DNA of 64,000 nucleotides from an uncultured Gammaproteobacteria bacterium. GTDB taxonomy: Bacteria > Patescibacteriota > Microgenomatia > Woykebacterales > RBG-16-39-9b. A program made the translations under genes and the position numbers. The DNA lies in NCBI GenBank assembly GCA_964367355.1, contig CAYIWY010000001.1:35307-99306 (forward strand). Reading direction: 5' to 3'. Positions 1,781 to 56,517 of the stretch are shown one piece after another (positions within the stretch are counted from its first letter, which is position 1; every line of letters starts with the position of its first letter). A model generated the notes under the pieces. The model saw only the letters and a program-made list of their open reading frames with translations. It had not been told where the DNA came from and ran no database searches.

Positions 1781-2617
1781 ATGTCACGCAAGCCCAGTAA
1801 GTCCCCGGCAAATGGAACTCCGGAAGCTGCGGATCTGTCCGCCGCCGATCCGAAGGACGGAAATGCTGACACCAGCGTCGCCGTCGCCACCCAGGACCCG
1901 CAGGCTGCGGAGGACGTCAACGCTCGCGAGTGCGAGTTCTGCGCCATGGTCATGCCAGCGGATTCCAAGGACCCGGCCTGCCCAATGTGCTTCCGGGACA
2001 ATCGGTTGTACATCATGCTCCGGTTCCTGGCGGCGAAGGGGCAGACGTACTGCAACGCCGTCCACGATGGCAAGCGCTGCGAATACGTACTGAACATGAG
2101 GTCGGACGGCAAGGACGTCTTCTGCCCCATGGACAAGGCGGATCGGGCGATCTTTGCGGCCGAGCGAAAGCTCCGCGAAGAGGCACCGACAACGGAAGCG
2201 CAGGCCAAGCTCGCTGAGGCGAAGGGCTTCTTCAACGGTGGGGACGACTGGAAAGCGCTCAAGGCGGCCAATCAGGTCTTCGATCTGCAGGCCAAACCCT
2301 TCGTCGAGGAGGGGCTTTCCAACCTGGTCGAGGCCGAACTCGGCCCGCTGGCACGTGCTGCTTACGATGAGGCTGTCAGCTTCGTCGAGCACGGCCAGTA
2401 CGTCCGCGCCAGCGAGTGCGTCGTGAGCATGAAGAACATCATGCCGCGCGAGCGCATGCTCATCGCCCATGGCGAGCGCCTGTCGAAGACCGATCAGCAG
2501 CGGCGGCAGCGGACCCACAGTCCTGACGTCGAGGACAACCTCGGCAGGATCAAGGGTTTCCAGCAGCGAGTCGCTTCTCACGCTCACGCCGGCAACGACG
2601 AGGACGGCGAAAACTAG
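1781..2617 (+). CDS. hypothetical Ala/Glu-rich protein with an N-terminal multi-Cys zinc-ribbon-like motif (CEFC..CPMC..C..C); GC-rich, likely foreign
   Basis: SD GGAGGA lies 7 nt upstream of the ATG. Cys pairs CxxC and CxxC are 12 aa apart, with three further Cys. The long antisense ORF 1784-2587 is a GC-artifact. Confidence 0.6.
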   Translation: MSRKPSKSPANGTPEAADLSAADPKDGNADTSVAVATQDPQAAEDVNARECEFCAMVMPADSKDPACPMCFRDNRLYIMLRFLAAKGQTYCNAVHDGKRCEYVLNMRSDGKDVFCPMDKADRAIFAAERKLREEAPTTEAQAKLAEAKGFFNGGDDWKALKAANQVFDLQAKPFVEEGLSNLVEAELGPLARAAYDEAVSFVEHGQYVRASECVVSMKNIMPRERMLIAHGERLSKTDQQRRQRTHSPDVEDNLGRIKGFQQRVASHAHAGNDEDGEN

Positions 2618-5181: not shown

Positions 5182-7026
5182 TTAATAACGAATGGAAATT
5201 AATAATTTTTCCGGGATATCAAGGACAAAACGGGACAGGACTCCTTCGGTACGGGTACCAAAGTAGAGTCGGCTTTGGGTATAAGTCATATAAAGTTGCT
5301 TCTCGGCGCGGGTAATACCGACATAACACAACCTGCGCTCCTCTTCGACACCAGAGGTATCGGTGAGAGATTGGCTATGGGGAAATAGACCCTCTTCCAT
5401 ACCAATCATAAAAACAATTGGAAATTCTAGCCCCTTGGCGGAATGTAAGGTCATCAAGGTAATGGCATCTTTTTTATCCTGATTTTGAACAGCTCTATTT
5501 GGCAGGTATTCTTTTTCGACCAAGGAAACGTTCTCCAAAAAATCAACAATTTCTGGGAATTCACTTGCAACTGAGCGAAGTTCTTTAACATTTTCGATTC
5601 GCCCGAGCGATTCTTCAGAGTTGTCATCAAGATAATTTAAATATTTTGTCTCAGCCAAAATTAAGTCAACAATGTCGATAGTTTTTAAACCTTCTGATTT
5701 TTGCCGAACGATTTCAAAAGAACTTTTGAAATCTAAAACCTTCTGATTGGTTTGGTCAAGTAAAGCCTTGGGACCGATGCCGCGTGGTGGTGTGTTGACG
5801 ACCCGTTTAAAACTTAAGCTATCGCTTGGATTGTTAATAAAGCGAAGATAAGCAACGATATCACGGATTTCCTTACGGTCGTAAAATCTAGTCCCCCCAA
5901 CCAAAACGTACGGCAAACCTTCACGCAACAGCGCCTCTTCCATTACCCGACTTTGGGCATTGGTTCGGTAAAGAACAGCAAAACTAGCCAAGGAAAAACC
6001 TTGGGAAGATGAAAGCAGCTTTTGGATTGTCCGGATGATAAACTCAGCTTCCTCGACTTCGTTTTTGGCCTCGTACAAAATTGTCGGAACTCCTTCATCA
6101 TTTTCCGTCCAAAGTTCAAGTATTGGATGAGAGCGGTTTTGATTGATAACATTTTGAGCCGCACCTAAAATATTTTTGGTTGAGCGGTAATTTTGGGAAA
6201 GGTTGATGGTTTCAACATCGGGAAAATCTTTGGAAAAATTAAGAATATTTTTATAGTCAGCTCCGCGCCAACCATAGATTGCTTGGGATGCATCGCCAAC
6301 CACACAAATGTTTTTGTGTTTAGAAGCGATTATTTTGGTTAATATATATTGGGCTTTGTTGGTATCTTGATATTCGTCAACCAAAACATATTTAAAACGG
6401 TTTTGGTATTTCTTCGCAACTTCTGGAAACTTTTCAAAAAGCACTACGACTTGCATCAAAAGATCGTCGAAATCCAAAGCGTGATTTTCCTTCAGTGATT
6501 CTTGGTAACGAAAATAAACTTTGGCAACAATTTCTTGAAAATAACCGCGGGCAAAGCCTTGATATTCGGTTGGTCCGATAAGTTCGTTTTTTGCCGAAGA
6601 AATCGAGTTTTTTATTGAATAAGGAGAAGTACTTTTCGGATCGAGATCAAGTTCTTTCAAAATTTCTTTGATCAAATCCAAACTGTCAGAGTCATCATAA
6701 ATAACAAACCTTGGACTGATTCCAAGATTTACTCCGTCGCTACGCAGAATACGAGCGCAGATTGAGTGGAAAGTTCCCATCCAAAGTGGCGTAGTTGAAA
6801 CTAACTTCTTTAAGCGCTCTTTCATTTCACCAGCAGCTTTGTTGGTAAATGTTACCGCTAGGATTTCTTCAGGGAGAGCTAATTTTTGTTCCAAAATGTA
6901 CGCAATCCGGTGAGTGATAACCCTGGTTTTTCCACTACCTGGACCAGAAAGAACCAAGAGCGGACCTTTTGTTTTCTTAACTGCTCTTTGTTGATCGACA
7001 TTTAATCCTTCTAAAAGTTTTTCCAT
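5182..7026 (-). CDS. uvrD: UvrD/PcrA-family ATP-dependent DNA helicase
   Basis: Walker A GPGSGKT, VLVDEYQD (motif II), and overall UvrD motifs. The likely start is MEKLLEGLN at 7026; the ORF-track start at 7107 adds 27 non-conserved residues. Confidence 0.85.
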   Translation of the reverse strand: MEKLLEGLNVDQQRAVKKTKGPLLVLSGPGSGKTRVITHRIAYILEQKLALPEEILAVTFTNKAAGEMKERLKKLVSTTPLWMGTFHSICARILRSDGVNLGISPRFVIYDDSDSLDLIKEILKELDLDPKSTSPYSIKNSISSAKNELIGPTEYQGFARGYFQEIVAKVYFRYQESLKENHALDFDDLLMQVVVLFEKFPEVAKKYQNRFKYVLVDEYQDTNKAQYILTKIIASKHKNICVVGDASQAIYGWRGADYKNILNFSKDFPDVETINLSQNYRSTKNILGAAQNVINQNRSHPILELWTENDEGVPTILYEAKNEVEEAEFIIRTIQKLLSSSQGFSLASFAVLYRTNAQSRVMEEALLREGLPYVLVGGTRFYDRKEIRDIVAYLRFINNPSDSLSFKRVVNTPPRGIGPKALLDQTNQKVLDFKSSFEIVRQKSEGLKTIDIVDLILAETKYLNYLDDNSEESLGRIENVKELRSVASEFPEIVDFLENVSLVEKEYLPNRAVQNQDKKDAITLMTLHSAKGLEFPIVFMIGMEEGLFPHSQSLTDTSGVEEERRLCYVGITRAEKQLYMTYTQSRLYFGTRTEGVLSRFVLDIPEKLLISIRY

Positions 7027-26124: not shown

Positions 26125-26502
26125 ATGGTAGAGGTGCAAGTGGCAACTCCAAGTGGAGAACCGGTAGTGGAAGCCTGGTCGCACACTTCGAACGGAGACC
26201 GATTCCGGCCTTGGGTTTCGGAAGATCACTGGGTTTTTAAAGCAGGGGAAGATTGGGAGATAGTTCGTGACGAAGCTTCAGCAGTTGTATTTCGAATTCA
26301 TCCTGGGCATCATCTGATGTTCCCCGGCAGTGAGTTTGTGGCGACTACTGAGGACGGTCGAAAGATCCGCACTCGAGGTACGTTGACCACAGAAGGTGAC
26401 GAACCTGTGGATCTGGTTATGAAGGGCCACCGTATCAAGGCCTACCGTAGTCCGGACCACCGAAACTTTCCACCCCGGCCAATCGACATCGACAACTGGT
26501 AG
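26125..26502 (+). CDS. hypothetical protein, GC-rich (island B)
   Basis: Strong SD AGGAGGTG. Preceded by an extended -10 TGgTATAAT (26079-26087) and followed by a terminator. About 58% GC against a host of about 38%. Confidence 0.6.
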   Translation: MVEVQVATPSGEPVVEAWSHTSNGDRFRPWVSEDHWVFKAGEDWEIVRDEASAVVFRIHPGHHLMFPGSEFVATTEDGRKIRTRGTLTTEGDEPVDLVMKGHRIKAYRSPDHRNFPPRPIDIDNW

Positions 26503-27556: not shown

Positions 27557-27955
27557 TTATCCCGGGACCAATTCTTTTTCTCCGGTCAGGACTAGCTCGA
27601 CGATCTCGTGAGACTTAAGCGCATCCGAGCGTTGATTACACGCTGACTGAGCCCTTGCCTTCGCAACCTGGTCAATTTCTTCGAGGGACCAAGAAGAATC
27701 CATCTCTGTTTCAAACGAAAACTTTCTGCCGGAAACGGTTTCGACGTTAACAACGACTTTGTAATGGTGTTGAGTAACAGCCGGTTGATCCATAACTCTC
27801 CTTTCGGCAACCTCCGGTTCTAGCCGTCTTGTCCGTACCGCTGGTTCGCGGTTGTCGCAAGCAGGGCTACCCCAACCGTTGTCCTCATCTCCTTCACGAC
27901 GTGCAGGTTCTCGATTATCACAAGCGCCCCATCCCATTAGACCTCTCCTTTCCAA
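27557..27955 (-). CDS. hypothetical protein with a tandem Cys-containing repeat (GWGACDNREPA and GWGSPACDNREPA)
   Basis: The direct repeat sits in the N-terminal third. The C-terminal part appears globular. GC-rich. Confidence 0.5.
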   Translation of the reverse strand: MERRGLMGWGACDNREPARREGDEDNGWGSPACDNREPAVRTRRLEPEVAERRVMDQPAVTQHHYKVVVNVETVSGRKFSFETEMDSSWSLEEIDQVAKARAQSACNQRSDALKSHEIVELVLTGEKELVPG

Positions 27956-32917: not shown

Positions 32918-32992
32918 TGGAGCGGAAGACAGGATTCGAACCTGTGACTTGCTGTTTACGAAACAGCTGCTCTACCACTGAGCTACTTCCGC
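32918..32992 (-). tRNA. tRNA-Thr (anticodon CGU), CCA encoded
   Basis: Reverse complement GCGGAAGTAGCTCAGTGGTAGAGCAGCTGTTTCGTAAACAGCAAGTCACAGGTTCGAATCCTGTCTTCCGCTCCA folds as a cloverleaf with anticodon loop TTCGTAA. Confidence 0.85.
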
Positions 32993-32994
32993 GT

Positions 32995-33070
32995 TGGCGA
33001 CTACGGAGGGATTCGAACCCACGATCCTACGCTGTCAACGTAGTGCTTTAAACCACTGAGCTACGTAGCC
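32995..33070 (-). tRNA. tRNA-Val (anticodon GAC), CCA encoded
   Basis: Reverse complement GGCTACGTAGCTCAGTGG..CTACGTTGACAGCGTAG..GGTTCGAATCCC..CGTAGTCGCCA. The anticodon stem CTACG/CGTAG is perfect, with loop TTGACAG. Confidence 0.85.
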
Positions 33071-33100
33071 TTTACTCCGAAAATTCGGAGGAATCTCTTT

Positions 33101-33176
33101 TGGTGGGGCAGACAGGAGTCGAACCTATAACCTCTTGCACGCAGTGCAATTGCTCTCCCAATTGAGCTACCACCCC
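33101..33176 (-). tRNA. tRNA, probably Ala (anticodon UGC); loop parse ambiguous
   Basis: Reverse complement GGGGTGGTAGCTCAATTGGGAGAGCAATTGCACTGCGTGCAAGAGGTTATAGGTTCGACTCCTGTCTGCCCCACCA. Cloverleaf with T-loop TTCGACT. The anticodon loop ACTGCGT gives UGC but carries C33 and a G3-C70 pair, so the identity is uncertain. Confidence 0.65.
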
Positions 33177-47048: not shown

Positions 47049-48875
47049 ATGACTGCAAAAGAACTACGAGAAAAATATTTAAGATTCTTCGAGAGCAAAG
47101 GGCATAAAGTTATCCCTTCAGCTACTCTTGTTCCGGAACATGATCCAACGGTACTTTTTACCACCGCCGGAATGCACCCGTTGATCCCATACTTAATTGG
47201 ACAAGAACATCCTCAAGGTAAACGTTTGACCAATGTTCAAAAATGCCTGCGGACTGACGATATCGATGATGTTGGCGACAACTGGCACAATACTTTTTTT
47301 GAAATGCTGGGCAACTGGTCACTTGGTGATTTAGATTCCAAAGGGAGCGCAGGCACTGTAGGTGGCTACGGAAAAAAAGAAGCAATAATCTGGTCCTACG
47401 AATTTTTAATCAACGAGCTGCAGCTAGATCCAAATAGAATTTCCGTGACTGTTTTTGGCGGTGATCCGGAAATACCTGGTATTTTGGAAGACACTGAATC
47501 AGTCGAAATTTGGAAAGAGTTAGGCATTCCTGAGGAGCGTATATTCCGCCTTGGAAAAACAGACAATTGGTGGGGGCCAGTAGGGGAAACCGGACCTTGT
47601 GGACCGGATACTGAAATGTTCTATGACACAGGCAAAGGGGATCACGGTAAAGTTTGCCGACCCGGGGAGGCTTGTGGGAAATACACGGAAATTTGGAACG
47701 ATGTTTTCATGGAATACAACCGTACCAAAGATGGAAAATATGAGACGTCAAAACAAAAAAATGTTGATACAGGGATGGGATTAGAACGAACAATTGCCCT
47801 TTTGCAAGGTCGAGAAAATATTTACGAAACAGAGCTTTTTTCACCAGTACTGCAGCTGATTAAAGATTTAGCAACTGACTACAAAGAAACATCCGCAAGA
47901 ATAGTTGCTGACCACTTGCGATCAGCCACCTTCTTATTGTCCGATAAAATTATTCCGGCAAACGTTGAACGTGGTTATGTTCTGCGCAGATTAATCCGAC
48001 GAGCTATTCGCCACGCCCGCTTGTTGGGAATTAATGGCAGTTTTGCTGCCAAAATAGCTGAAAAATTTATTGAAATTTATAAAGATGAGTATTCTGAACT
48101 TGTCGATAATGCTGAATTAATTTTCCGGGAACTAAACATTGAAGAAGAGAAATTTCAGAAAGCTTTGGCTTCAGGTCTTCGTGAATTTGAAAAATTCGGT
48201 GAGAAATTAACCGGTAAGGATGTTTTCTATCTTTATGAATCCTTTGGTTTTCCACCAGAGTTAACCTACGAACTCGCCAGTGAAAAAGGCATAAAAGTTA
48301 ACCATGATGAGTTTGAAGTAGAACTTGTTCGGCATCAAGAAACTTCCAAAGCTGGTAGTGAGAAAAAATTTGCTGGGGGACTTGCTGATCATACGGAAAT
48401 TACCGTCCGTGGCCATACTGCTACCCATCTGCTTCACCAGGCCTTGAGAGATGTTTTAGGTGGTTCGGTCCACCAAACTGGGTCTAATATTACTCCCGAG
48501 CGAATTCGCTTTGACTTTTCTTACGGTGAAAAAATGACAGAGGAACAAATAAAAAAAGTTGAAACAATCGTAAATTCAAAAATTCAAGCAGATTTGCAGG
48601 TCAAAAAAGAACTCCTGTCCCAAGACGAAGCCGATAAAAAAGGAGCTATTGGTTTATTTAAAGAAAAATACGGCGACAAGGTGTCAATTTATGAAATCGG
48701 TCCTTCGACCCATTCGACGGACTCAGGGCAAGCAAACTCAGGACGAGGTTACTCTGTTGAATATTGTGGTGGCCCGCATGTGGAACATACCTCTGAGGTT
48801 GGAAGGTTCAAGATAATAAAAGAAGAGTCAGTTTCCGCTGGTCAAAGACGAATCAAAGCAGTTTTAAATCCCTAG
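47049..48875 (+). CDS. alaS: alanine--tRNA ligase (C-terminally truncated form)
   Basis: Class II motifs, and the editing-domain HTATHLLHQAL and CGGPHV zinc motif. The C-Ala domain is absent. The start was moved to MTAKELREKY. Confidence 0.9.
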   Translation: MTAKELREKYLRFFESKGHKVIPSATLVPEHDPTVLFTTAGMHPLIPYLIGQEHPQGKRLTNVQKCLRTDDIDDVGDNWHNTFFEMLGNWSLGDLDSKGSAGTVGGYGKKEAIIWSYEFLINELQLDPNRISVTVFGGDPEIPGILEDTESVEIWKELGIPEERIFRLGKTDNWWGPVGETGPCGPDTEMFYDTGKGDHGKVCRPGEACGKYTEIWNDVFMEYNRTKDGKYETSKQKNVDTGMGLERTIALLQGRENIYETELFSPVLQLIKDLATDYKETSARIVADHLRSATFLLSDKIIPANVERGYVLRRLIRRAIRHARLLGINGSFAAKIAEKFIEIYKDEYSELVDNAELIFRELNIEEEKFQKALASGLREFEKFGEKLTGKDVFYLYESFGFPPELTYELASEKGIKVNHDEFEVELVRHQETSKAGSEKKFAGGLADHTEITVRGHTATHLLHQALRDVLGGSVHQTGSNITPERIRFDFSYGEKMTEEQIKKVETIVNSKIQADLQVKKELLSQDEADKKGAIGLFKEKYGDKVSIYEIGPSTHSTDSGQANSGRGYSVEYCGGPHVEHTSEVGRFKIIKEESVSAGQRRIKAVLNP

Positions 48876-48928
48876 AGGACTTAGGTAAAAACAATTTAAA
48901 TCCAAATTCTTTCCCAATAGACACACAC

Positions 48929-48958
48929 TTGACAGAAACTATAGGACTGTAGTATATT
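48929..48958 (+). promoter_or_regulatory. AT-rich sigma70-like promoter TTGACA, 18 bp, TATATT, facing GC-rich island D
   Basis: Seen directly. The GC jump begins at about 48966. Confidence 0.5.
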
Positions 48959-49005
48959 GTTGCGCGCCAGCCTATAATCCATTTCGATAAAGAAAGGAAC
49001 TGCCC

Positions 49006-49788
49006 ATGGTTACTGCCACAGCCGCAAAGAACGGCGCATCTGCCGAACCTGTGACATCGCGCCGCGACACTCGCGCCAGCAAGGTTTCGGCGGTCAAGAC
49101 AGAGCAATCGTCCAAGTCCAACACGGGTTGGATGCACGTCAGGATTCACTGTGTCGGGCGCACCCCCCTGCTGATGGATCCCATGACTGATGGGACCATC
49201 GAGGAGCTGGAAACTGGGGTTCGCAAGCCGATCAACAAGCAACTGACGCGTTACCAGGTCTGCGAACCCAAAGTCATGCACAATGCTGCTGGCTTGATCG
49301 CGGTCCCCATCGACAACTTCTTCGCCTGCACTGTCGAGGCCGGCCGGAGAATCCCGTTTCAGAAGATGAGCAAGATGAGTACGGCTACCAGCACGACTTT
49401 GCCGGAGTACTTCCGCTTCATCTCGGAGGATCTGGTACTACTCGACAATAAGGGTAAGCCACTGCCGGACTGGGACGGGAAGTCGAAGAACGGCAGCTGG
49501 AGCGTCGATGTGCGCCGTGGTTGTCTCAAGGATGGCACGGCTGTGCCGATCCGGCGGCCGAAGTTCGACCACTGGGAATTCGATGTCGAGTTCGAGTATG
49601 ACATGGGAGTCATCTCGGACCAGAAGCTTCTCGATCTGATCAAGATCGCCGGCACGACCATGGGGCTGTGCAGCTTCCGGCCGAACAAGAAGGGTCGCTT
49701 TGGCACCTTTGCGATGACGCGCTGGGAAGAGATCGCTCGCCGTGAACAGGATACCGAGGTTGAGATAGTCAGGTTGAAGGCCGCGTAA
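49006..49788 (+). CDS. hypothetical protein (island D gene 1), GC-rich; possible glycine-rich loop near the C-terminus
   Basis: SD AAAGGAA. 260 aa. Low-complexity N-terminus. C-terminal GTTMGLCSFRPNKKGRFGTF is loosely reminiscent of a RAMP/Cas6 G-rich loop; this is speculative. Confidence 0.55.
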   Translation: MVTATAAKNGASAEPVTSRRDTRASKVSAVKTEQSSKSNTGWMHVRIHCVGRTPLLMDPMTDGTIEELETGVRKPINKQLTRYQVCEPKVMHNAAGLIAVPIDNFFACTVEAGRRIPFQKMSKMSTATSTTLPEYFRFISEDLVLLDNKGKPLPDWDGKSKNGSWSVDVRRGCLKDGTAVPIRRPKFDHWEFDVEFEYDMGVISDQKLLDLIKIAGTTMGLCSFRPNKKGRFGTFAMTRWEEIARREQDTEVEIVRLKAA

Positions 49789-49847
49789 CAACAAAGGGTG
49801 ACGTACAGTACGTTTCGTTAGGTTGGCACAACTGCACTGTCGTCATT

Positions 49848-49899
49848 TGCACTACAGGGTGGGGAACTAGGAGTCAACTTCTTTTTCCCCACCAAAACT
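49848..49899 (+). terminator. hairpin GGGTGGGGAA..TTCCCCACC plus T-run after gene 1; its 5' arm resembles the array-unit head
   Basis: CAGGGTGGGG is shared with unit R10. Followed by AAAACTCTTTTTTGG. Confidence 0.5.
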
Positions 49900-50042
49900 C
49901 TTTTTTGGTGGTTTGGTATCGGAATAAATTTCGTTACTAGAGCATCAAAACAAATACTTGGAGAAGATCAATCCAGAGTTGGGCCAAGCATTGTGGACAT
50001 ACCTGCCCTTTCGTCTACTGCTGCCCACTCCGCTGCGTCATG

Positions 50043-51304
50043 GGGCTGGATCCGATTATCGCAAGACGATCGGATCTGCCGACACTAACTACCTCGGCGT
50101 TGATGAGTGCGTTTCACTGACGTGAACTGCTTTGCACTTTAATGCGCTCGAGTTAAGTAGAGGGCTGGGGATCCGGAGAGAAATCAAAGGATCTCTGCCA
50201 ACCTTTTGTTTTCAAGTAGCCTGGGGCGGACTTCATAACAGTGGAGTTTCCTGGGGTCACCTGCAGGGCTGGGTTCCGAGAGGAAACAATCGGAACCTGC
50301 CACCTTGTTGACGGACTAAGCTGACGTTCAGTGTCGAACCGTTCGGTTCAGCACGCTCACGTGCGTCAGGTTTTAGTGGGGTGCAGGGCTGGGGGTTTCC
50401 TTGGGAAACTAGGGAAACCTCTGCCAACCAATGTTCGGTGCGCAGTTACCTCTCGTATTGATCGCCTTCCTGCTGTTGGCTACTCTGTCGTTTGGTGACC
50501 TGCTGTAATCTGAAGGGCTGGGTCCGTTTACAGAAATGTATCGGACTTGCCAAATTTGTGGTCTAGGGTGCGGTTTGGTTAACTCCACTAGCGTGCGGAA
50601 AACTGGCCTACACCTAACTGACGTCAGGGGCTGAGGACCCGGAGAGAAATCAAAGGGTCTTTGCCAACAAACTCAATTCGTTCCCCTGCTGTGAAGATGG
50701 CTTAACTTCAGTTAAGTTCTCCTTACTTACGTGGGGTATCGTGGAGTATGGGGCTGGGGATTTGCTCTGGAGAAATCTATTCAAGTCCCTGCCAACAACT
50801 TAAGTTGAACTTAGCTGCAGCTGACTTCTGTTCGCTGGGCTATTGTTACGTGCAGGGCTGGGTCCGTTTACAGAAATGTATCGGACCTGCCAAACCAATT
50901 TTGATGAATTGATTCTGAAAACATAAATTTCAAAACCAGCTCATCAGGGTTTTGAGAGAGTTATCAAGTGCGCTAGACCACTGTTCCCTAAAGCACCCAA
51001 GGGTTCAGCCCACTTTCGTGGTCTTCGCAATGGTACTGGGCTGGGGACCCGGAGAGAAATCAAAGGGTCTCTGCCAAAACGCTTTCAACTTAGGTACTGT
51101 ACCCCGTTCTTCGGTAAACAGTCCTGTCGCATTGTTTAGGGCTGGGGAGTTGGTTAACTTTGGTTTTCTAACTCCCTGCCAACCGAATTAGATTTTCGAG
51201 GGGTAGTGTTGTGTATGGCAGCGTCATGCTCCGTCTGCTTCAGTACACCAGGTTGCCCCATAGTTCAGGACTGCCCCCGATGTTTCGAAAGAATTATCGG
51301 GGGT
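50043..51304 (+). repeat. array I of structured repeat units with the pattern CAGGGCTGGG, variable hairpin, CTGCCAAC (11 units)
   Basis: Units: 50043-50083, 50162-50202, 50266-50304, 50386-50428, 50515-50554, 50628-50668, 50751-50796, 50855-50894, 51038-51080, 51138-51182, plus a degenerate unit at 51261-51304. Stems of 5-7 bp covary (GATCC/GGATC against GACCC/GGGTC; GTCCG/CGGAC; GGATCTG/CAGATCC; GGTTTCC/GGAAACC). Loops usually contain AGAAAT. Inter-unit segments are unique and 60-184 bp long. There is no ORF. Confidence 0.85.
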
Positions 51305-51365
51305 GTCATTTTTCAATATTTACCTAAAAAATTCTGTCCCATTTTGTAACAAGGCACTTTAACAA

Positions 51366-53213
51366 GTGACAAATAGTAAAGGAGAGGGGACAACAGTGCC
51401 TTCATCGCAACATCGTGGTAGGCCTTCTTTCGAGGAGCTTACCTCCGCCTGGCCAAGGCGGCGACTTGGACCCATGTGGTCCGAACAAGAAGAAGCCTTT
51501 GAGGTCATTGCCAAACATGGCAGTTGTACCTTGGAGGTACCGACTGGTATGGGCAAAACCGCTATCGGTTACACGACGCTCAAGGCGTTGGGCAACCGTG
51601 GTGAAGGCCCACTTTTCTACATCGTGCCGACCAAAACTTTGGTTGGACAGGTAGCTGAGATGTTTCCAGACGTCACTCCGGCCTATGGTCGGAATGAGTT
51701 TGATTGTCTCTACTACGACGAGCCGTACAAAGCGGACGAAGTCCCTTGCCTGCTATTGCAGGACTGTGTCCATCGGGTCGATCAAGAGACTGGCCGGACT
51801 GCTGGTCGAGGAGCAGAACGTTGCCCCTACTACCACGCCAAGTACCAAGCCAAACGCGATCCGAGTCGGATCGTAGTCTGCTCGATGTCGTTTTACCTTT
51901 TCACCCAGCTTTTCTCCAAGGAGTTTGAGAATCCAGCTGGTTTGGTGATCGACGAAGTTCAGCAGATGCCAGATGTGGTCCGTAATGCTCTGTCTTTTGA
52001 CATCACGGACTATCAGTTGCAACGGGCGATCAACCTACTGTCAACCACAGCTGCGGATGAAGCTGCTGGTCTCGAGATCTTTCTCGATACTATGTTGCGG
52101 ATCATTCGACTCAAGCCTTCGAAGGTGCCGGTAATGCTCGAAGATGTCGAGTTGCAGGAACTGCTGTTGGTCTTGCGAGATATTGACCGCGATGGTCTGC
52201 GTCGCAAGATCGCCGAGGGTATCCGCTCGGGCGACATTGATGTCGTCAAAGAGCGAGAAGTCCTGACCAAAGTTGAGCGACTGGTCTATGACCTGTACCG
52301 TTACGTGCGAGCGTTTGAATTTTCGCTCAGCAACGAAACACAACGGCCACTCAACTACACCTACGCAGTTTGGGACAAAGAACCAGCTGAGGGCAAAAAG
52401 GTCCACAACAAGCTGACCGTCAAGTCCTACTACGTCGCGCCGGTGATCAAGAAACTGCTGTCAGCCAATCTGACAGTGAGTTTGGGAGCGACTATCGGCG
52501 ACCCGAACGTGTTTGGTTACGAGTCAGGGATCGATCCGAGGCGAACGCCGATGTTCACTTTTGACTCGAGTTTTCCGGTCGGCAACACCCGGATCTACGT
52601 TCCGTCGGACTCCTTTAGCTTGGCGGAAAAAGAGGTCAAAAATCGTGGTAAAGCCACAATGGTCCGTCGGATGGTTCGCTCGGCCAAAACCTTCAACCAA
52701 AAAGGTGAGCGCGTGTTGTGCTTGGTCGTCTCTGACACCGAGCGGCAGCGCTTTATTCGGATGGCCACTGAAGACGATGTCAACTTCATCACTTACGGTG
52801 ATGGCGTGACCGCGCGCGAAGCTGCGGACCGCTTCCGTGCCGGAGAGGGTAAAGTCCTGCTTGGGACAGACGCCCAGTACGGCCAGGGTGTTGACCTGCC
52901 AGACGGTATCTGTCGGGTGATCTTCTACCTGCGACCCGGTTATCCGCGACCAGATGATCCTCAGACCCAGTTTGAGGAAAAGCGTTTTCGCTCACAGAAG
53001 TGGGCAATCTGGCAGTGGCGACTGATCATGAAGGCGATGCAGGTGCGCGGTCGTAACATCCGTGGTCCGGAAGACAGGGGAGTGACGATTTTCTTCGACA
53101 GCCGTTTCCGGCGTTTCCTTTTCGGAGGGATGCCCAAGTGGCTCCAGCCGTCATATCGTGGAGATCTGACACTGCAAGAGTGCATTGAGGACGCGCTCAA
53201 GGTGTTGAAGTAG
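51366..53213 (+). CDS. Rad3/XPD/DinG-family SF2 helicase with an Fe-S domain (island D gene 2)
   Basis: Walker A TGMGKT. Four Cys lie between motifs I and II (CLYY, PCLLL, DCVHR, ERCPYY). Motif II is VIDEVQQM (a DEAH-like DEVQ). The C-terminal LLGTDAQYGQGVDLPDG and QVRGRNIRGPEDRGVTIFFDSR match DinG motifs V/VI. An alternative start GTG 51396 has SD AAGGAGAGGGG. Confidence 0.8.
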   Translation: MTNSKGEGTTVPSSQHRGRPSFEELTSAWPRRRLGPMWSEQEEAFEVIAKHGSCTLEVPTGMGKTAIGYTTLKALGNRGEGPLFYIVPTKTLVGQVAEMFPDVTPAYGRNEFDCLYYDEPYKADEVPCLLLQDCVHRVDQETGRTAGRGAERCPYYHAKYQAKRDPSRIVVCSMSFYLFTQLFSKEFENPAGLVIDEVQQMPDVVRNALSFDITDYQLQRAINLLSTTAADEAAGLEIFLDTMLRIIRLKPSKVPVMLEDVELQELLLVLRDIDRDGLRRKIAEGIRSGDIDVVKEREVLTKVERLVYDLYRYVRAFEFSLSNETQRPLNYTYAVWDKEPAEGKKVHNKLTVKSYYVAPVIKKLLSANLTVSLGATIGDPNVFGYESGIDPRRTPMFTFDSSFPVGNTRIYVPSDSFSLAEKEVKNRGKATMVRRMVRSAKTFNQKGERVLCLVVSDTERQRFIRMATEDDVNFITYGDGVTAREAADRFRAGEGKVLLGTDAQYGQGVDLPDGICRVIFYLRPGYPRPDDPQTQFEEKRFRSQKWAIWQWRLIMKAMQVRGRNIRGPEDRGVTIFFDSRFRRFLFGGMPKWLQPSYRGDLTLQECIEDALKVLK

Positions 53214-53287
53214 AGAGTCAACCTGTGGCCTAGTCAAGTTAACCGAGCTGTTCTGTGGTGACTTGATGTCGGCTATTCAATTGCACA

Positions 53288-53882
53288 GGGTGGGGATCTG
53301 CTCTGGAGAAATCTATCCAGATCCCTGCCATTTTCTTTTTTCAACGAGTGCAGTTAGGCAGACAATGTCATTGTCCTGTTTACCTAACTGGTGTTCGCTG
53401 CAGGGCTGCCTCGATAAAACCGAAAGGATTTATCGGGGCGCCATTCTTTTGATAGTTTAATTTTGGAAATATTTTCAAAACTAGCCTATCAAAGAAAAAC
53501 GATATGGTATTCTTTTGTCGACGCGGCGGTCTTCAGTTCGCTAGCCCATGCTGCCGTTCGGTAGAGTCGGGAACGCTAGAGAGTACTGAACCGCAGTATG
53601 GGGCTGGGAACCTGCTCTGAGTAATCATCAGGTTCCTGCCAACGTTCACTTTCGTGCGGTTCAACAGCGTAGGGACTCGCCAACTGTGGTAAAGTTCTCT
53701 ATTGTAGTGTTAACCGCGCTGGTCTAAAGGGCTGGGGATCTGCTCTGGAGAAATCTATCCAGATCCCTGCCAATTTCACAAACTGACTCAAGCAGGGCCA
53801 TGTCCACAGGAGTTAGGTGGCCTGCGCTTTTGTCTAGTTTAGGGCTGGGTCCGATTTCAGAAATGTTTTCGGACCTGCCAAC
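53288..53882 (+). repeat. array II of the same structured repeat units downstream of the helicase (5 units)
   Basis: Units: 53288-53331 (ends CTGCCAT), a degenerate unit at 53403-53444 (similar to 51261-51304), 53601-53643, 53729-53774, 53842-53882. Units 50751-50796, 53288-53331 and 53729-53774 form one family. Units 50515-50554, 50855-50894 and 53842-53882 form another. Confidence 0.85.
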
Positions 53883-54067
53883 TCAATTTCGGCGGGATTC
53901 AAGTTTTTATTAACTTGGTCCCGCTTTTTCTTTTACCAAATTTTGTTTCGAGATTGAAAATGGTATTATAATAAGAGACGATCTGCCAAGATACCGCGTT
54001 AAATGTAATTTAGATAAATTAAGAACTATTTTATGCGCGCGATATTTCGTCATCTAAAACTGCCAAA

Positions 54068-55030
54068 ATGAAATTTATTCCAAATATTATTCCCAAAAGA
54101 GATAAAAAACATTCCCGCTTTGTCGTTTTGGATATTGGTTTGGGAAGAGTCAATATTGCCATTTTTGATACCACGCCCGAAGGTCCGAAGTTTGTTGGAG
54201 TTGGTAGACGCAGCTTTGGAGCAGCCGATACGATTTTAGACGCTACCTTGGAAGCCACTGACGCTCTGGGAGCAATCGTTGACGAGCTGCCTTCAGCTGC
54301 AATCGTTGGGGTAAGTGGCGGAAAACTCGATACAATTTCCACAATCGCAAAATACACCCGCGAAAAACCAAAACAAGCAATCGATAAAAATGAAGCCTCG
54401 TCAGTCCTAGAAAAAGTTTCTGCAGAAGAAAAAGAAAATCTCAAAATATTTTTTTCAACAATAACTAGTGCAAACATCGACGGAGCAAAACTTACAAACC
54501 CAATCGGGGTTAAGGGGGAAAAAGCAGAGGTAAATTGTTTTATTGCCTTTAAACCAGAAGAAGAGCTGAAGATTTATGACCAAATTATCGATGAGCTAGA
54601 ACTGAAACCAGAAAAAATTATCCCAACTTCATTTGCTGTAACCCAAATGGTAAGTAAAGATTTGACCGGAAATACTCTGCTACTTAGAATTGGCCAAACA
54701 AAAACAGAAGCAGCTCAAGTACACAGAGGAAATTTAATTAAAGTAACAAACATTGACCTTGGGGCGGAACAGCTTGATTATTACCCATTTGCTTTGGAAG
54801 CATTGTTGGAAAAACAAAACCCCGAGGAAAGAACTAGCCTTATTTGGCTTTATGCTGACAGCGACGAGGTTAATTTAGTTGATATTGAAGAAAAACTAGC
54901 AAGTGTGGATTGGAAAAAGAAATTTGATTTTAAAGAAGAAATTAAGATAGAAAGAGCTTCAGGAGAAAATAATTTTGGTCAATCGGATATGGGTTTACTT
55001 GCCCTTTCTTTACAGGAGATTTTTAACTGA
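54068..55030 (+). CDS. actin-like ATPase, FtsA/PilM family
   Basis: The N-terminal phosphate-1-like motif VVLDIGLGRVNIAIFD fits the ASKHA fold. Confidence 0.4.
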   Translation: MKFIPNIIPKRDKKHSRFVVLDIGLGRVNIAIFDTTPEGPKFVGVGRRSFGAADTILDATLEATDALGAIVDELPSAAIVGVSGGKLDTISTIAKYTREKPKQAIDKNEASSVLEKVSAEEKENLKIFFSTITSANIDGAKLTNPIGVKGEKAEVNCFIAFKPEEELKIYDQIIDELELKPEKIIPTSFAVTQMVSKDLTGNTLLLRIGQTKTEAAQVHRGNLIKVTNIDLGAEQLDYYPFALEALLEKQNPEERTSLIWLYADSDEVNLVDIEEKLASVDWKKKFDFKEEIKIERASGENNFGQSDMGLLALSLQEIFN

Positions 55031-56517
55031 TGCGTCAACTCGAGATCGATTCACAAACCAATCTTTCACATATTCTTTCAGAACTTAAAACCACTGATGA
55101 AAATGGGCTGGAATTAAATGTTGTTCCAAATGAAACTACTGTACTGGACAATCCAATTCATAGATTAATTATTGAAAAAGCCGCTAAAGATTTTAACAAA
55201 GAAGTTGTTTTTCCAGCTTCTCCAATTGAAGACGCTCCGGAGGTGGAAAGTGACGATTTGGGTTTTGTCGAAGGTGAGGATATCGTTGCTAAAACCCCGA
55301 TAGAAGAAGTCCACAAAATGATTCAGCCGGCAGCAGTTATTTCTAAAGAAGTACTTGCCAAAAAGAAAAAGTTTACTCTACCGAAATTCCTCAAAAATAA
55401 ATTAGTCTTACTTGGTATCGGGGTATTTGTCTTAATAATTGCGTTCGGTCTTGGAATTTATTTTTTACCCTTCGCCAAAATAGAATTAGTACTAAGCAGT
55501 GAAACAAAAGACTCACAAATAACTTTGACTGGAGATACGACGCAAAAAGAAGTCGATATTAAAAATAAAGTCGTTCCCATGAAAGCAATTGAAGTTTCTA
55601 AAGAAGGCGATGATGAGCAAACAACAACCGGCAAGAAAACAGTTGGCACTGTAGCTAAAGGCAGAGTTACTATCACAAACAGAAGTGTAGAAAAAACTTT
55701 TATTGCCGGAACAATCTTAACCCCAGTTGCTACTAGTAGTGCTACCTTTAAGTTGGATAATGACGTGACTATTCCGGCTTCGCAATGGCCTCTAGGTTCG
55801 GACGGGACAATTGGTGTTAATGTTACCGCAACTGCAGCAGGAACAGCAGGAAATTTGGCTGCAAACACCTCATTCAAAGTTGGAAGTGCCTCGACCATAG
55901 AAATTTCTGCGAAAAACGACCTAGCTTTATCTGGAGGATCTTCCAAACAGGTAACGGTTGCTTCTGCTGATGACCGGGAAGTTTTAAAGAAGCAGATCGT
56001 CGATAAGCTAACAGCCGATGCCAAGAAAGATACGGAGAAAAAAACTAAGGATTCAATTGTGCCCGACGAGGGCTCGATTGTCGAAGTCGTCAAAGAGGAA
56101 TATGAGCCAAAAGATATAAATGCCGAAGCAGAAAAACTCAAAGCAACAATTTCGATAAAAGTTAAAACCTTTGTCTTTGATAGAAATGATTTAACAAAAG
56201 TCTTTGTGGAATCGTTGGAAAAATCGGCGAAAGGCTTTAGTGTTGATAAGGAAGTTTCCAAAATAACCCTGCAGCAAACTGAAAAAACTTCCGAAACAGT
56301 TGCAAAATTTATCGGTAAAATTAAAGCAGTTTTGCATCCTGAAATTAATAAAAAAGAGATAACTCGGCAAACAACCGGCAAGAGTTTGAACGACGTTGAT
56401 TCGTATTTAGACTCGTCCGGTAATATAAGCAGTTACAAAGTAACTACCTTTCCGGGATTTTTTAAGTTTATGCCGTTTAACCAAAGTAAGATTGAAGTAA
56501 GGCTGAAAAACGACTAG
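55030..56517 (+). CDS. hypothetical bitopic membrane protein with a Thr/Val-rich extracellular domain
   Basis: TM around residues 120-145 (LVLLGIGVFVLIIAFGLGIYFLPF). Translationally coupled to the upstream gene (ATGA overlap). Confidence 0.4.
   Translation: MRQLEIDSQTNLSHILSELKTTDENGLELNVVPNETTVLDNPIHRLIIEKAAKDFNKEVVFPASPIEDAPEVESDDLGFVEGEDIVAKTPIEEVHKMIQPAAVISKEVLAKKKKFTLPKFLKNKLVLLGIGVFVLIIAFGLGIYFLPFAKIELVLSSETKDSQITLTGDTTQKEVDIKNKVVPMKAIEVSKEGDDEQTTTGKKTVGTVAKGRVTITNRSVEKTFIAGTILTPVATSSATFKLDNDVTIPASQWPLGSDGTIGVNVTATAAGTAGNLAANTSFKVGSASTIEISAKNDLALSGGSSKQVTVASADDREVLKKQIVDKLTADAKKDTEKKTKDSIVPDEGSIVEVVKEEYEPKDINAEAEKLKATISIKVKTFVFDRNDLTKVFVESLEKSAKGFSVDKEVSKITLQQTEKTSETVAKFIGKIKAVLHPEINKKEITRQTTGKSLNDVDSYLDSSGNISSYKVTTFPGFFKFMPFNQSKIEVRLKND

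What the first reader, a model, noticed from the sequence alone, without database searches (positions are those of the whole stretch)
49006..49788. Gene 1 of island D: orphan 260-aa protein upstream of the array, with a weak RAMP-like G-rich loop
The gene has the same orientation and the same GC-rich composition as the helicase, and its promoter sits immediately upstream. Its terminator hairpin (49848-49884) begins with the array-unit head CAGGGTGGGG, as if derived from a unit. The C-terminal segment GTTMGLCSFRPNKKGRFGTF sits where Cas6-type endoribonucleases carry their glycine-rich loop. If the array is processed as RNA, this is the obvious candidate processing or binding factor. I cannot confirm the fold from sequence alone.
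Basis: inference. Interest (0 to 1): 0.6.

Follow-up and report, generated by a model that had tools for sequence, protein, structure and literature searches.

The report
Vipr guide-RNA protein of a VIPR locus
The 260-residue protein is not an orphan but a member of the recently described Vipr family, small CRISPR-like RNA-binding proteins, and with the neighbouring arrays of five-base-repeat guide RNAs and a DinG-like helicase it forms a complete VIPR RNA-guided DNA-recognition system in a probable candidate-phyla-radiation bacterium.

Summary

The "array" is 17 head-to-tail units. Each has 11-16 pentanucleotide repeats ([G/C]-T-N-N-N) followed by a covarying hairpin tail, which is the published vrRNA anatomy in its YNNNG variant. 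Vipr, array and an Fe-S XPD/DinG-like helicase recur together in five related Patescibacteria loci.

Best explanation: a VIPR system. Vipr would polymerise on each vrRNA, one protomer per repeat, and read double-stranded DNA through the variable dinucleotides. The helicase would be the accessory effector. The mechanism rests on homology only. No targets were found.

Verdict: a new member of a kind first described in 2026. The Cas6-style processing idea and the "orphan" label are not supported.

The parts
48929..48958 (+). Sigma-70-like promoter candidate for vipr (TTGACA-18-TATATT)
   Evidence: 11 of 12 matches, 48 nt upstream of the ATG. This is a consensus match only; 4 such sites were found in the region against 3.4 expected by chance.
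49006..49788 (+). vipr gene: a 260-aa Vipr-family RAMP. Residues 1-43 are a disordered basic/Ser/Thr-rich extension. The RAMP core is about residues 44-246.
49501..49566 (+). Predicted thumb beta-hairpin (aa 166-187), including the invariant R184
   Evidence: Strands E166-173 and E179-187 in the model. R184 is one of three invariant columns in 90 sequences. It aligns with SUSP1 R138, the thumb residue that contacts G2 of the repeat. The assignment is by alignment; I did not inspect the 3D model.
49651..49710 (+). G-loop (aa 216-235, GTTMGLCSFRPNKKGRFGTF)
   Evidence: This is the most conserved stretch of the family: G216, G220, R225, P226, G230, G233 and F235 are invariant or at least 90% conserved. 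It aligns with SUSP1 G-loop residues C173/D177/W178/R179, which map to M219/S223/F224/R225.
49812..49911 (+). First vrRNA-like unit directly after the vipr stop codon. Pentanucleotide tract about 49812-49856. Variant tail hairpin 49857-49893 with head GGGTGGGG. T-rich run, so it probably also acts as the vipr terminator.
   Evidence: (I2, D11). L001 has the same arrangement at 6140.
49978..50895 (+). vrRNA array 1: 8 head-to-tail units. Tail heads at 50043, 50162, 50266, 50386, 50515, 50628, 50751 and 50855.
   Evidence: Exact motif GGGCTGGG-N15-40-TGCCAA: 10 copies in the window against 0.00 expected, all in the island. Five-nt register: phase 0 G .51/C .38, phase 1 T .75. It is the only strongly periodic [G/C]T region in 64 kb, and only on the + strand.
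50896..50965 (+). AT-rich leader between sub-arrays, with a conserved element ATAAATTTC..A.CA.C.CATCA. Candidate array promoter or regulatory site.
   Evidence: D9 and D10: copies at 49924-49947, 50923-50946 and 53473-53491, each ahead of a sub-array. The function is inferred.
50966..51314 (+). vrRNA array 2: 3 units. Tail heads at 51038 and 51139. The third has a variant tail at 51268-51309 whose hairpin plus T-run looks like a terminator.
   Evidence: The variant tail is related to the one at 53403-53444 (D14).
51366..53213 (+). Accessory (vap-like) helicase: SF2 XPD/DinG-type with four conserved Cys (Fe-S domain), Walker A PTGMGKT and motif II DEVQ. The true start may be the GTG at 51393, which follows the RBS AGGAG.
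   Evidence: Pfam Helicase_C_2, DEAD and DEAD_2. PHROG DNA helicase E 1.9e-38. PADLOC typeIV_DinG 'CAS-IV-A; associated' E 3.3e-44, full length. XPD and DinG relatives. Conserved motifs in 6 orthologues. Co-occurs with vipr in 5 other loci.
53225..53450 (+). Two vrRNA units after the helicase stop codon. Tails at 53288-53331 (head GGGTGGGG, followed by a T-run) and 53403-53444 (variant tail, terminator-like).
   Evidence: (D3, D11, D14).
53444..53515 (+). AT-rich palindromic leader before array 3
   Evidence: sequence; only sub-threshold microRNA-family hits, which reflect the palindrome., D10.
53516..53883 (+). vrRNA array 3: 3 units. Tail heads at 53601, 53729 and 53842.
53892..53934 (+). 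Intrinsic-terminator-like hairpin (GCGGGA...TCCCGC followed by TTTTTCTTTT) that closes the island
   Evidence: Read directly. The loop exceeds the limit of the scanner, so the scanner did not list it.

Best explanation
Island D (about 48.93-53.93 kb) is a complete VIPR (Viral Interference Programmable Repeat) system in a probable Patescibacteria chromosome, and the 260-aa protein is its Vipr subunit.

Proposed working:
1. The + strand arrays are transcribed. They yield about 17 vrRNAs of roughly 100-125 nt.
2. Each vrRNA has 11-16 pentanucleotide repeats of the form [G/C]-T-N-N-N, followed by a 3' hairpin tail (GGGCUGGG-stem-loop-CUGCCAA).
3. Vipr protomers bind one per repeat and form a filament. 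The G-loop, helix 1 and thumb sequester the conserved [G/C]-U, which corresponds to G2 and Y3 of the canonical GGY. The following two variable bases are exposed.
4. The filament recognises double-stranded DNA through these dinucleotides, with one target base skipped per repeat.
5. The XPD/DinG-like Fe-S helicase encoded between the arrays is the accessory effector. It would be recruited or activated at the bound target, by analogy with DinG in type IV-A CRISPR-Cas.
6. The island sits between housekeeping genes, not in a prophage. Its likely role is therefore host defence or silencing of phages and other mobile elements.

Shown here: family membership by profile and fold, the RNA anatomy, the covariation of the tail, and conservation of the three-part architecture. 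Inferred from the two SUSP1/P. fulva papers: filament formation, the reading rule and DNA targeting. Speculative: the role of the helicase.
For: Protein:
- The family profile hits only SUSP1 Vipr in the PDB (E 9.6e-12).
- hhalign against SUSP1 Vipr gives 97.7%, E 1.5e-12, over 173 columns end to end.
- It shares PHROG phrog_4652 with SUSP1 Vipr.
- The model is confident (pLDDT 89.4).
- The invariant R184 and R225 align with SUSP1 R138 (thumb) and R179 (G-loop), and F224 aligns with W178. These are residues shown by cryo-EM to hold G2 and Y3.

RNA:
- There are 10 exact tail motifs against 0 expected.
- The 5-nt register has T at 75% and G/C at 89% in two adjacent phases, and three variable phases.
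- The signal is unique to the island and to the + strand.
- The SUSP1 control shows GTNNG in the same frame.
- The papers list YNNNG as a natural variant consensus.
- The tail hairpin is 99.1% paired, with 41 double-change cells against 9.5 in shuffles, and many G-U pairs, which argues for a strand-specific RNA.
- Between orthologous guides of the window and L001, the position after the NN changes 19 times against 6-8 for each other phase (p about 0.01). This fits NN as the constrained specificity positions.

Architecture:
- vipr, periodic array and helicase recur in L001, L005, L007 and L008.
- L006 has vipr and the helicase, but its array was not detected by the automated window scan.
- All named organisms are Patescibacteria or Paceibacterota MAGs.

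Literature: VIPR anatomy, code and structures.
Against: - No expression data exist. No RNA ends are known.
- No target was found for any guide. The local search was negative. Five exact-pattern scans of viral contigs were negative. One metagenome scan gave only chance-level hits, at best 24 of 32 positions.
- The repeat consensus departs from the tested GGY/NN. The first G is absent and the second is G or C. The 1-nt-skip rule has been demonstrated only for type II systems.
- The two SUSP1 residues that read G1 (H17, D177) are D58 and S223 here. That could mean a changed binding mode. However, relative L005 keeps the Asp and still lacks G1, so the link is unproven.
- The tail is a simple hairpin, not the SUSP1 pseudoknot.
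- Pairwise sequence similarity to SUSP1 Vipr is weak (phmmer E 0.12). Membership rests on profile methods.
- I could not place the locus among the paper's seven types, because its figures and data files are not held.
Confidence: 0.85

Rival explanations
1. The protein is a Cas6-like endoribonuclease whose main job is to cut the array transcript at the hairpin units.
For: It has a RAMP fold with a G-loop. The units carry a conserved hairpin flanked by invariant GGGCUGGG and CUGCCAA, which could be a cleavage signal. No ribozyme or other processing element lies between the units, so some protein or host RNase must separate them.
Confidence: 0.07
2. The island is a reduced type IV-like CRISPR-Cas module: a Cas7/Csf2-like protein plus a DinG helicase with a degenerate CRISPR array.
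Against: There is no repeat-spacer organisation. The units have divergent, covarying stems and 5-nt periodic 'spacers'. No Cas7/Csf2 model in Pfam, NCBIfam or PADLOC matches the protein. The island has only two ORFs, so there is no Cas5, Cas6 or Cas8-like partner. The canonical Csf4 models match only weakly, at E 1e-4 to 5e-6.
Confidence: 0.04
3. The hairpin units are DNA-level or generic elements (REP-like palindromes, terminators, or recombination sites of a mobile element) with no functional link to the protein. The protein would be a decayed or stand-alone RAMP relic.
For: Several tails are followed by T-runs and look like terminators. The island is compositionally foreign. In L001 one segment is inverted and flanked by an inverted unit copy.
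Against: G-U pairs make the structure strand-specific. The periodic tract occurs only on the coding strand. Arrays of the same kind sit next to vipr homologues that are only 31-43% identical, in independent genomes. The ORF is intact, its invariant residues are preserved, and its fold is predicted with confidence.
Confidence: 0.04

Closest known systems
VIPR systems (Vipr + vrRNA + vap), bioRxiv 10.64898/2026.04.26.720920 and 10.64898/2026.04.26.720927. Reference members: Escherichia phage SUSP1 and a P. fulva prophage (type II).
   Same: The protein is a roughly 200-aa single-RRM RAMP with a G-loop and thumb, and it is homologous to SUSP1 Vipr at the profile level. The flanking non-coding arrays encode roughly 100-nt units made of 9-16 or more pentanucleotide repeats plus a conserved structured 3' tail. 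The locus is minimal, with two genes and no cas genes or CRISPR array. An accessory gene is predicted to act on DNA; the paper says types III-V carry nucleases or helicases.
   Different: The repeat consensus is [G/C]-T-N-N-N (Y-NN-N-G/C) rather than GG-Y-NN. The tail is a plain covarying hairpin rather than a pseudoknot. There are 17 units in five blocks, most of them between vipr and the accessory gene. The accessory protein is a 615-aa Fe-S DinG/XPD-like helicase rather than the small DNA-binding Vap1. The locus is chromosomal, in a probable Patescibacteria genome, not in a phage. The protein has a 43-aa disordered N-terminal extension. The type (I-VII) could not be assigned.
Cas7-type CRISPR RAMPs (Csm3, Cmr4, Cmr6, Csf2)
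   Different: Sequence identity is 8-13% and no Cas7 family model matches. The period would be 5 nt of RNA rather than 6. There is no CRISPR array and there are no partner Cas proteins.
Type IV-A CRISPR-Cas (Csf complex + DinG/Csf4)
   Same: It pairs a Cas7-like guide-RNA filament with an XPD/DinG-family helicase. The helicase's best defence-database match is a type IV-associated DinG model.
   Different: There is no Csf1, Csf3 or Cas6 and no CRISPR repeats. Canonical Csf4 models match weakly. The functional analogy is my inference and was not tested.
Cas6 endoribonucleases
   Same: It belongs to the RAMP superfamily and has a C-terminal glycine-rich loop.

Membership tests
Vipr protein family / VIPR system | Sequence homology to an experimentally characterised Vipr (SUSP1, PDB 36pp) | tested here: met
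   The single sequence is weak (E 0.12). The 90-sequence profile gives E 9.6e-12 and 36pp is the only PDB hit. hhalign gives 97.7%, E 1.5e-12, full length. Both proteins fall in phrog_4652.
Vipr protein family / VIPR system | Minimal RAMP fold: a single RRM core with a glycine-rich loop and a thumb | tested here: met
Vipr protein family / VIPR system | Adjacent non-coding RNA genes made of tandem pentanucleotide repeats (YNNGG or a related consensus, at least 4, typically 9-16 units) | tested here: met
   There are 11-16 in-phase units per RNA, with T at 75% and G/C at 89% in adjacent phases. The signal is unique in the window. The consensus corresponds to the published YNNNG variant, with G or C at the last position.
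Vipr protein family / VIPR system | A conserved structured 3' tail capping each repeat tract | tested here: met
   The hairpin has invariant flanks. Of its cells, 99.1% are paired. Six of 11 pairs show compensatory changes. No shuffle out of 500 reached the observed covariation. A pseudoknot like that of SUSP1 was not looked for.
Vipr protein family / VIPR system | Minimal locus with an accessory (vap) gene and no CRISPR array or cas genes | tested here: met
   The island has two ORFs. There are no identical repeat-spacer arrays. The helicase is conserved next to vipr in 5 related loci. Only the island was checked for cas genes, not the whole window.
Vipr protein family / VIPR system | vrRNAs are expressed and form a ribonucleoprotein with Vipr | not testable with these tools
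   This needs small-RNA sequencing and pull-down.
Vipr protein family / VIPR system | Guides match natural DNA targets under the 1-nt-skip rule | tested here: inconclusive
   There is no match of 78% or better in the window or fetched loci under eight rules. There were 0 hits in 5 viral scans. The 18 metagenome hits are at chance level. The scans allow exact matches only and covered 5 of 17 guides.
Cas6 endoribonuclease | Two RRM domains, the closest structural similarity to Cas6, and association with identical CRISPR repeats | tested here: not met
Cas7 (Csm3/Cmr4/Csf2) of CRISPR-Cas | A match to a curated Cas7 family model and a genomic context of cas genes and a CRISPR array | tested here: not met
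   There are no Pfam, NCBIfam or PADLOC hits for the protein. The context lacks cas genes and CRISPR repeats. Fold similarity alone is met.
XPD/DinG-family SF2 helicase (for the neighbouring gene) | Helicase_C_2 and DEAD_2 domains, Walker A, motif II, and a four-Cys Fe-S domain | tested here: met
   Pfam hits are above the cut-offs. Four Cys and PTGxGKT are conserved in 6 orthologues. Motif II is DEVQ here and DEAH in three relatives. PADLOC typeIV_DinG E 3.3e-44.

The most novel reading that the evidence does not exclude
This helicase-linked Patescibacteria clade may use a modified code and effector logic. Only two positions per pentamer are fixed ([G/C]-Y) and the G1 contacts of SUSP1 Vipr are replaced. 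The filament may therefore present or read the guide differently, for example with a third, partly read position. It may also hand the target to a type IV-like DinG helicase. That would make it a living intermediate between VIPR and type IV CRISPR-Cas interference.
Probability: 0.15. Interest if true: 0.8.

Novelty: new member of a known kind. Interest (0 to 1): 0.55.

Why it matters
VIPR is a newly described way of recognising DNA with RNA, using a gapped dinucleotide code, and has been proposed as the ancestor of CRISPR RAMPs. Only phage type II systems have been studied experimentally.

This locus is a compact chromosomal example with several useful properties:
- It has 17 guides.
- It has a non-canonical repeat consensus.
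- It has a DinG-like helicase. The published work states that the role of such helicases is still unclear.
- Natural variation is available. A sister locus sits in a genome whose flank is 92% identical in DNA and whose adjacent gene is 98% identical in protein. Its Vipr is only 53% identical, yet several of its guides are 80-94% identical.

That makes it a good system for two questions: how the code tolerates changes in the fixed bases, and what the helicase does. It also places a VIPR system in a probable candidate-phyla-radiation bacterium, a group that is generally considered poor in CRISPR-Cas (my own knowledge, not checked here).

Tried and rejected
Target searches:
- I searched the window and nine fetched loci with 13 guides under eight reading rules: NN or NNN, 0-3 skipped bases, and two choices of NN. 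Only the trivial self-matches under the colinear rules appeared.
- Five exact-pattern scans of IMG/VR used 18-22 specified positions from five guides, with a 3-nt target period that also covers an NNN contiguous rule. None gave a hit.
- One metagenome scan with an 18-position seed gave 18 hits. They extend to only 18-24 of 32 positions, which is chance level.

Ideas tested and dropped:
- I tested whether the three variable bases are codons. Translating the triplets gives many stop codons in both orientations, so I dropped the idea. The excess of changes at the third variable position is better explained by lack of constraint.
- I looked for a link between loss of the G1-binding Asp (D177 to S223) and loss of the first G in the repeats. 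Relative L005 keeps the Asp and still lacks G1, so the link is not supported.

Searches that gave nothing useful:
- Rfam found no known family and no hammerhead ribozyme in the island.
- No close relatives were found in IMG/VR with the peptide patterns that could be derived.
- The AFDB fold library was unavailable, so I could not test for a direct hit to the paper's seed accessions.
- The paper's supplementary tables are not held, so no VIPR type could be assigned.

Full report
**1. The observation**

- The ORF at 49006-49788 (+, 260 aa, ATG) exists as described, and the helicase ORF at 51366-53213 has the same orientation.
- Both lie in a compositionally distinct block. GC is 0.58 for the ORF, 0.54 for the helicase and 0.52 for 48990-53935, against 0.40 for the rest of the window.
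- A near-consensus promoter-like site (TTGACA-18-TATATT) is at 48929-48958. The region has about as many such sites as shuffled sequence, so this alone proves little.
- The hairpin after the stop codon is real, with arms at 49858-49874 and 49877-49893 followed by a T-run.
- It is a variant array unit. It is preceded by in-phase pentanucleotide repeats, and a near-copy follows the helicase gene at 53288-53331.

**2. The protein is not an orphan**

- Pfam, NCBIfam and PADLOC find nothing. The word-indexed search finds only three relatives.
- An exhaustive HMMER search of 1.84 billion cluster representatives finds 917 at E<=1e-3 and 296 at E<=1e-10. Most are about 200-250 aa and align to residues 44-245.
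- PHROGs gives phrog_4652 (E 1.2e-9) on residues 173-237.
- The only PDB sequence hit is 36pp, 'SUSP1 Vipr protein'. It is weak for the single sequence (E 0.12). It becomes E 9.6e-12 with a 90-sequence profile and is again the only hit.
- I fetched the SUSP1 locus. hhalign of the profile against the 195-aa SUSP1 protein gives 97.7% probability, E 1.5e-12, over 173 columns from the first strand to the C-terminus.
- SUSP1 Vipr is itself phrog_4652 at E 1.4e-96.

**3. Fold**

- AlphaFold2 with the 90-sequence alignment gives pLDDT 89.4 and pTM 0.80. Residues 1-41 are disordered and the core spans 42-246.
- Foldseek against the PDB returns only CRISPR RAMP subunits among its listed top 50. The first is Csm3 (6ifn_F, E 1.2e-6, TM 0.49/0.56).
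- BFVD adds three phage proteins of about 200 aa, one of them annotated as a RAMP.
The nearest neighbours are Cas7-type backbone subunits, not Cas6.

**4. The G-loop**

- Residues 216-235 are the best conserved part of the family. G216, G220, R225, P226, G230, G233 and F235 are at least 90% conserved or invariant.
- By the alignments, SUSP1 C173/D177/W178/R179 correspond to M219/S223/F224/R225. The thumb residue R138 corresponds to the invariant R184. H17 corresponds to D58.
- The cryo-EM paper (10.64898/2026.04.26.720927) shows that R138 and W178 hold G2. It shows that R179, helix 1 and the G-loop hold the pyrimidine Y3. It shows that H17 and D177 read G1.
- So the contacts for G2 and Y3 are conserved here, and those for G1 are not.

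**5. The array is a set of vrRNA genes**

- The motif GGGCTGGG-N15-40-TGCCAA occurs 10 times in the window against 0.00 expected. All copies are in the island and on the + strand. Looser variants bring the number of units to 17.
- I aligned the 60 nt upstream of 13 tail heads in register. This shows a strict 5-nt period:
  - phase 0 is G 51% / C 38%;
  - phase 1 is T 75% (T+C 90%);
  - phases 2-4 are variable, with phase 4 A-rich.
- Only four stretches in the 64 kb reach 9 of 12 in-phase [G/C]T dinucleotides. All four are in these arrays on the + strand. The highest score seen is 10, and the 95th percentile of the maximum in shuffled island sequence is about 7.
- The same display of the SUSP1 intergenic regions shows GTNNG repeats, that is GG-T-NN, as a positive control. 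In that frame the window's units read [G/C]-T-N-N-N. The published NN corresponds to phases 2-3, and the published first G corresponds to the unconstrained phase 4.
- The VIPR paper (10.64898/2026.04.26.720920) defines vrRNAs as 9-16 YNNGG repeats plus an invariant structured tail. It reports natural variants NNNGG, YNNNG and NNNNG. The present consensus is the YNNNG kind, with G or C at the last position.

**6. The tail is a structured RNA**

- I took 21 tails from the window and the sister locus L001. An 11-bp hairpin closed by GGC/GCC is 99.1% paired. Shuffles give 82% and slid registers give 37-61%.
- Six pairs carry compensatory changes. There are 41 double-change cells against 9.5 in shuffles, and none of 500 shuffles reached the observed value.
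- One pair is G-U in 20 of 21 sequences. This would be a C-A mismatch on the other strand, so the structure belongs to the + strand transcript.
- Rfam has no family for it, and there is no hammerhead between units.
- Three tails (49857, 51268, 53403) and the unit at 53288 are followed by T-runs and probably double as terminators. A separate terminator-like hairpin at 53892-53934 closes the island.
- A short conserved AT-rich element precedes each of three sub-arrays (D9 and D10). These are candidate promoters.

**7. Which positions carry specificity**

- Four guides are recognisably orthologous between the window and L001. Over 60 repeat units the numbers of differences by phase are 6, 6, 8, 7 and 19 (chi-square p about 0.01).
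- Phases 2-3 are hypervariable between different guides. Between orthologues they are as conserved as the fixed bases, whereas phase 4 drifts.
- This fits NN (phases 2-3) as the reading positions and phase 4 as a free position. It is modest evidence from four pairs.
- A codon reading of the three variable bases was rejected, because translation gives stop codons throughout.

**8. Conserved architecture**

- L001 encodes a Vipr that is 53% identical. It carries the same tails and repeat type, a helicase that is 68% identical, and the same downstream host gene.
- A scan of species-representative genomes found six loci with relatives. Four are named Candidatus Paceibacterota MAGs, one a Patescibacteria group MAG, and one only 'bacterium'.
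- In L005, L007 and L008 a 5-nt periodic array follows the vipr homologue, and the helicase homologue (41-44% identity) follows the array on the same strand.
- L006 has vipr and the helicase, but the automated window scan detected no periodic array between them.
- L002 is too short to show a helicase but has about eight units.
- The consensus in these loci is G/S-Y-NNN throughout.

**9. The helicase**

- It has Helicase_C_2, DEAD and DEAD_2 domains. XPD, FANCJ and DinG are the nearest solved or curated relatives.
- Four cysteines, Walker A and motif II are conserved in six orthologues. Motif II is DEVQ in the window and L001, and DEAH in three others.
- The best defence-database match is a full-length hit to a PADLOC model labelled typeIV_DinG, 'CAS-IV-A; associated' (E 3.3e-44). 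The canonical Csf4 models match weakly.
- The VIPR papers say that types III-V carry nucleases or helicases and that the role of these accessory proteins is unknown. They do not mention DinG.
- The parallel with type IV-A CRISPR-Cas, a Cas7 filament plus DinG, is my inference.

**10. Mechanism proposed**

- This follows the SUSP1 and P. fulva work. Vipr protomers bind one per repeat along each vrRNA. They sequester the fixed bases and expose the NN dinucleotides.
- The filament engages double-stranded DNA. The target strand pairs with the NN positions, with one base skipped per repeat, in an R-loop triplex. Binding alone silences transcription.
- Here the helicase would add unwinding, displacement or clearance at the bound site.
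- The island lies between an alanyl-tRNA-synthetase-like gene and cell-division-type genes and has no phage genes. It looks like a host-borne system of the kind the paper describes for types III and V.
- All of this is inferred from homology. Nothing about expression, binding or targets was shown here.

**11. Targets**

- No target was found.
- The public scans accept exact patterns only, and phages of these bacteria are poorly sampled. The negative result is therefore weak.

**12. Evolution of the locus**

- The host flank is 92% identical in DNA, and 313 of 320 residues are identical in the adjacent gene, between the window and L001.
- The island is only about 67% identical in DNA. Vipr is 53% identical and the helicase 68%.
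- The vipr-plus-array-1 segment is inverted in L001 relative to the helicase, with one vrRNA unit present as an inverted pair at its borders.
- Several guides are better conserved (80-94%) than the genes. I have no tested explanation for this. Possible explanations are diversifying selection on the proteins, cassette exchange, and an assembly artefact for the inversion.

**13. Verdict**

The protein is a Vipr, the array encodes vrRNAs, and the helicase is the accessory gene. This is a new member of a kind described in 2026. It has a non-canonical repeat consensus, a hairpin tail and a DinG-like helicase, in a probable Patescibacteria chromosome.

Noticed in passing
window 48828-55500 compared with L001: The island is far more diverged than its flank between two otherwise near-identical genomes. 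The island is about 67% identical in DNA (Vipr 53%, helicase 68% in protein). The flank is 92% identical in DNA, and the adjacent 320-aa gene is 98% identical in protein. The island sits at the same insertion site in both.
   Followed up: partly
L001 5062 (- strand) and 6906 (+ strand): In L001 the vipr-plus-array segment is inverted relative to the helicase. It is bordered by an inverted pair of the same vrRNA unit, which has an unusual short tail, GGGCTGGGGGATTTTTCGAGAGATTAGTCCCCCAAC. This could be a real invertible segment or an assembly artefact at the contig end.
   Followed up: no
window 50307-50385 vs L001 6577-6655; also 50441-50514, 53521-53600 and 49978-50042: Four guides are 80-94% identical between the two loci, although the protein genes are only about 67% identical in DNA. 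The arrays are more conserved than the genes they accompany.
   Followed up: partly
window 49924-49947, 50923-50946, 53473-53491 (palindrome 53444-53499): A conserved AT-rich element precedes each sub-array. The third copy lies in a long AT-rich palindrome that gives sub-threshold microRNA-family hits in Rfam. These are candidate array promoters or operator sites.
   Followed up: no
window 51366-51395: The helicase ORF as listed starts at the GTG at 51366. A strong RBS (AAAGGAGAGG, about 51379-51388) sits 5-7 nt before an in-frame GTG at 51393, which is the more likely start (606 aa). Motif II is DEVQ here and in L001, and DEAH or DEVH in the other orthologues.
   Followed up: partly
window 1781-2617 (+), 26125-26502 (+), 27557-27955 (-): Other GC-rich patches of the window hold ORFs of 278, 125 and 132 aa with foreign-looking composition. 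None carries the tail motif or the 5-nt periodic signal.
   Followed up: no
window 32918-33176 (-): A cluster of three tRNA genes (Thr-CGT, Val-GAC, Ala-TGC). These are the only Rfam gathering-level hits in the window.
   Followed up: no
L005 2040-2700: In this relative each vrRNA unit is separated by an AT-rich spacer with a repeated TTTGAGAAA element, as if each unit had its own promoter. This contrasts with the head-to-tail units of the window.
   Followed up: no
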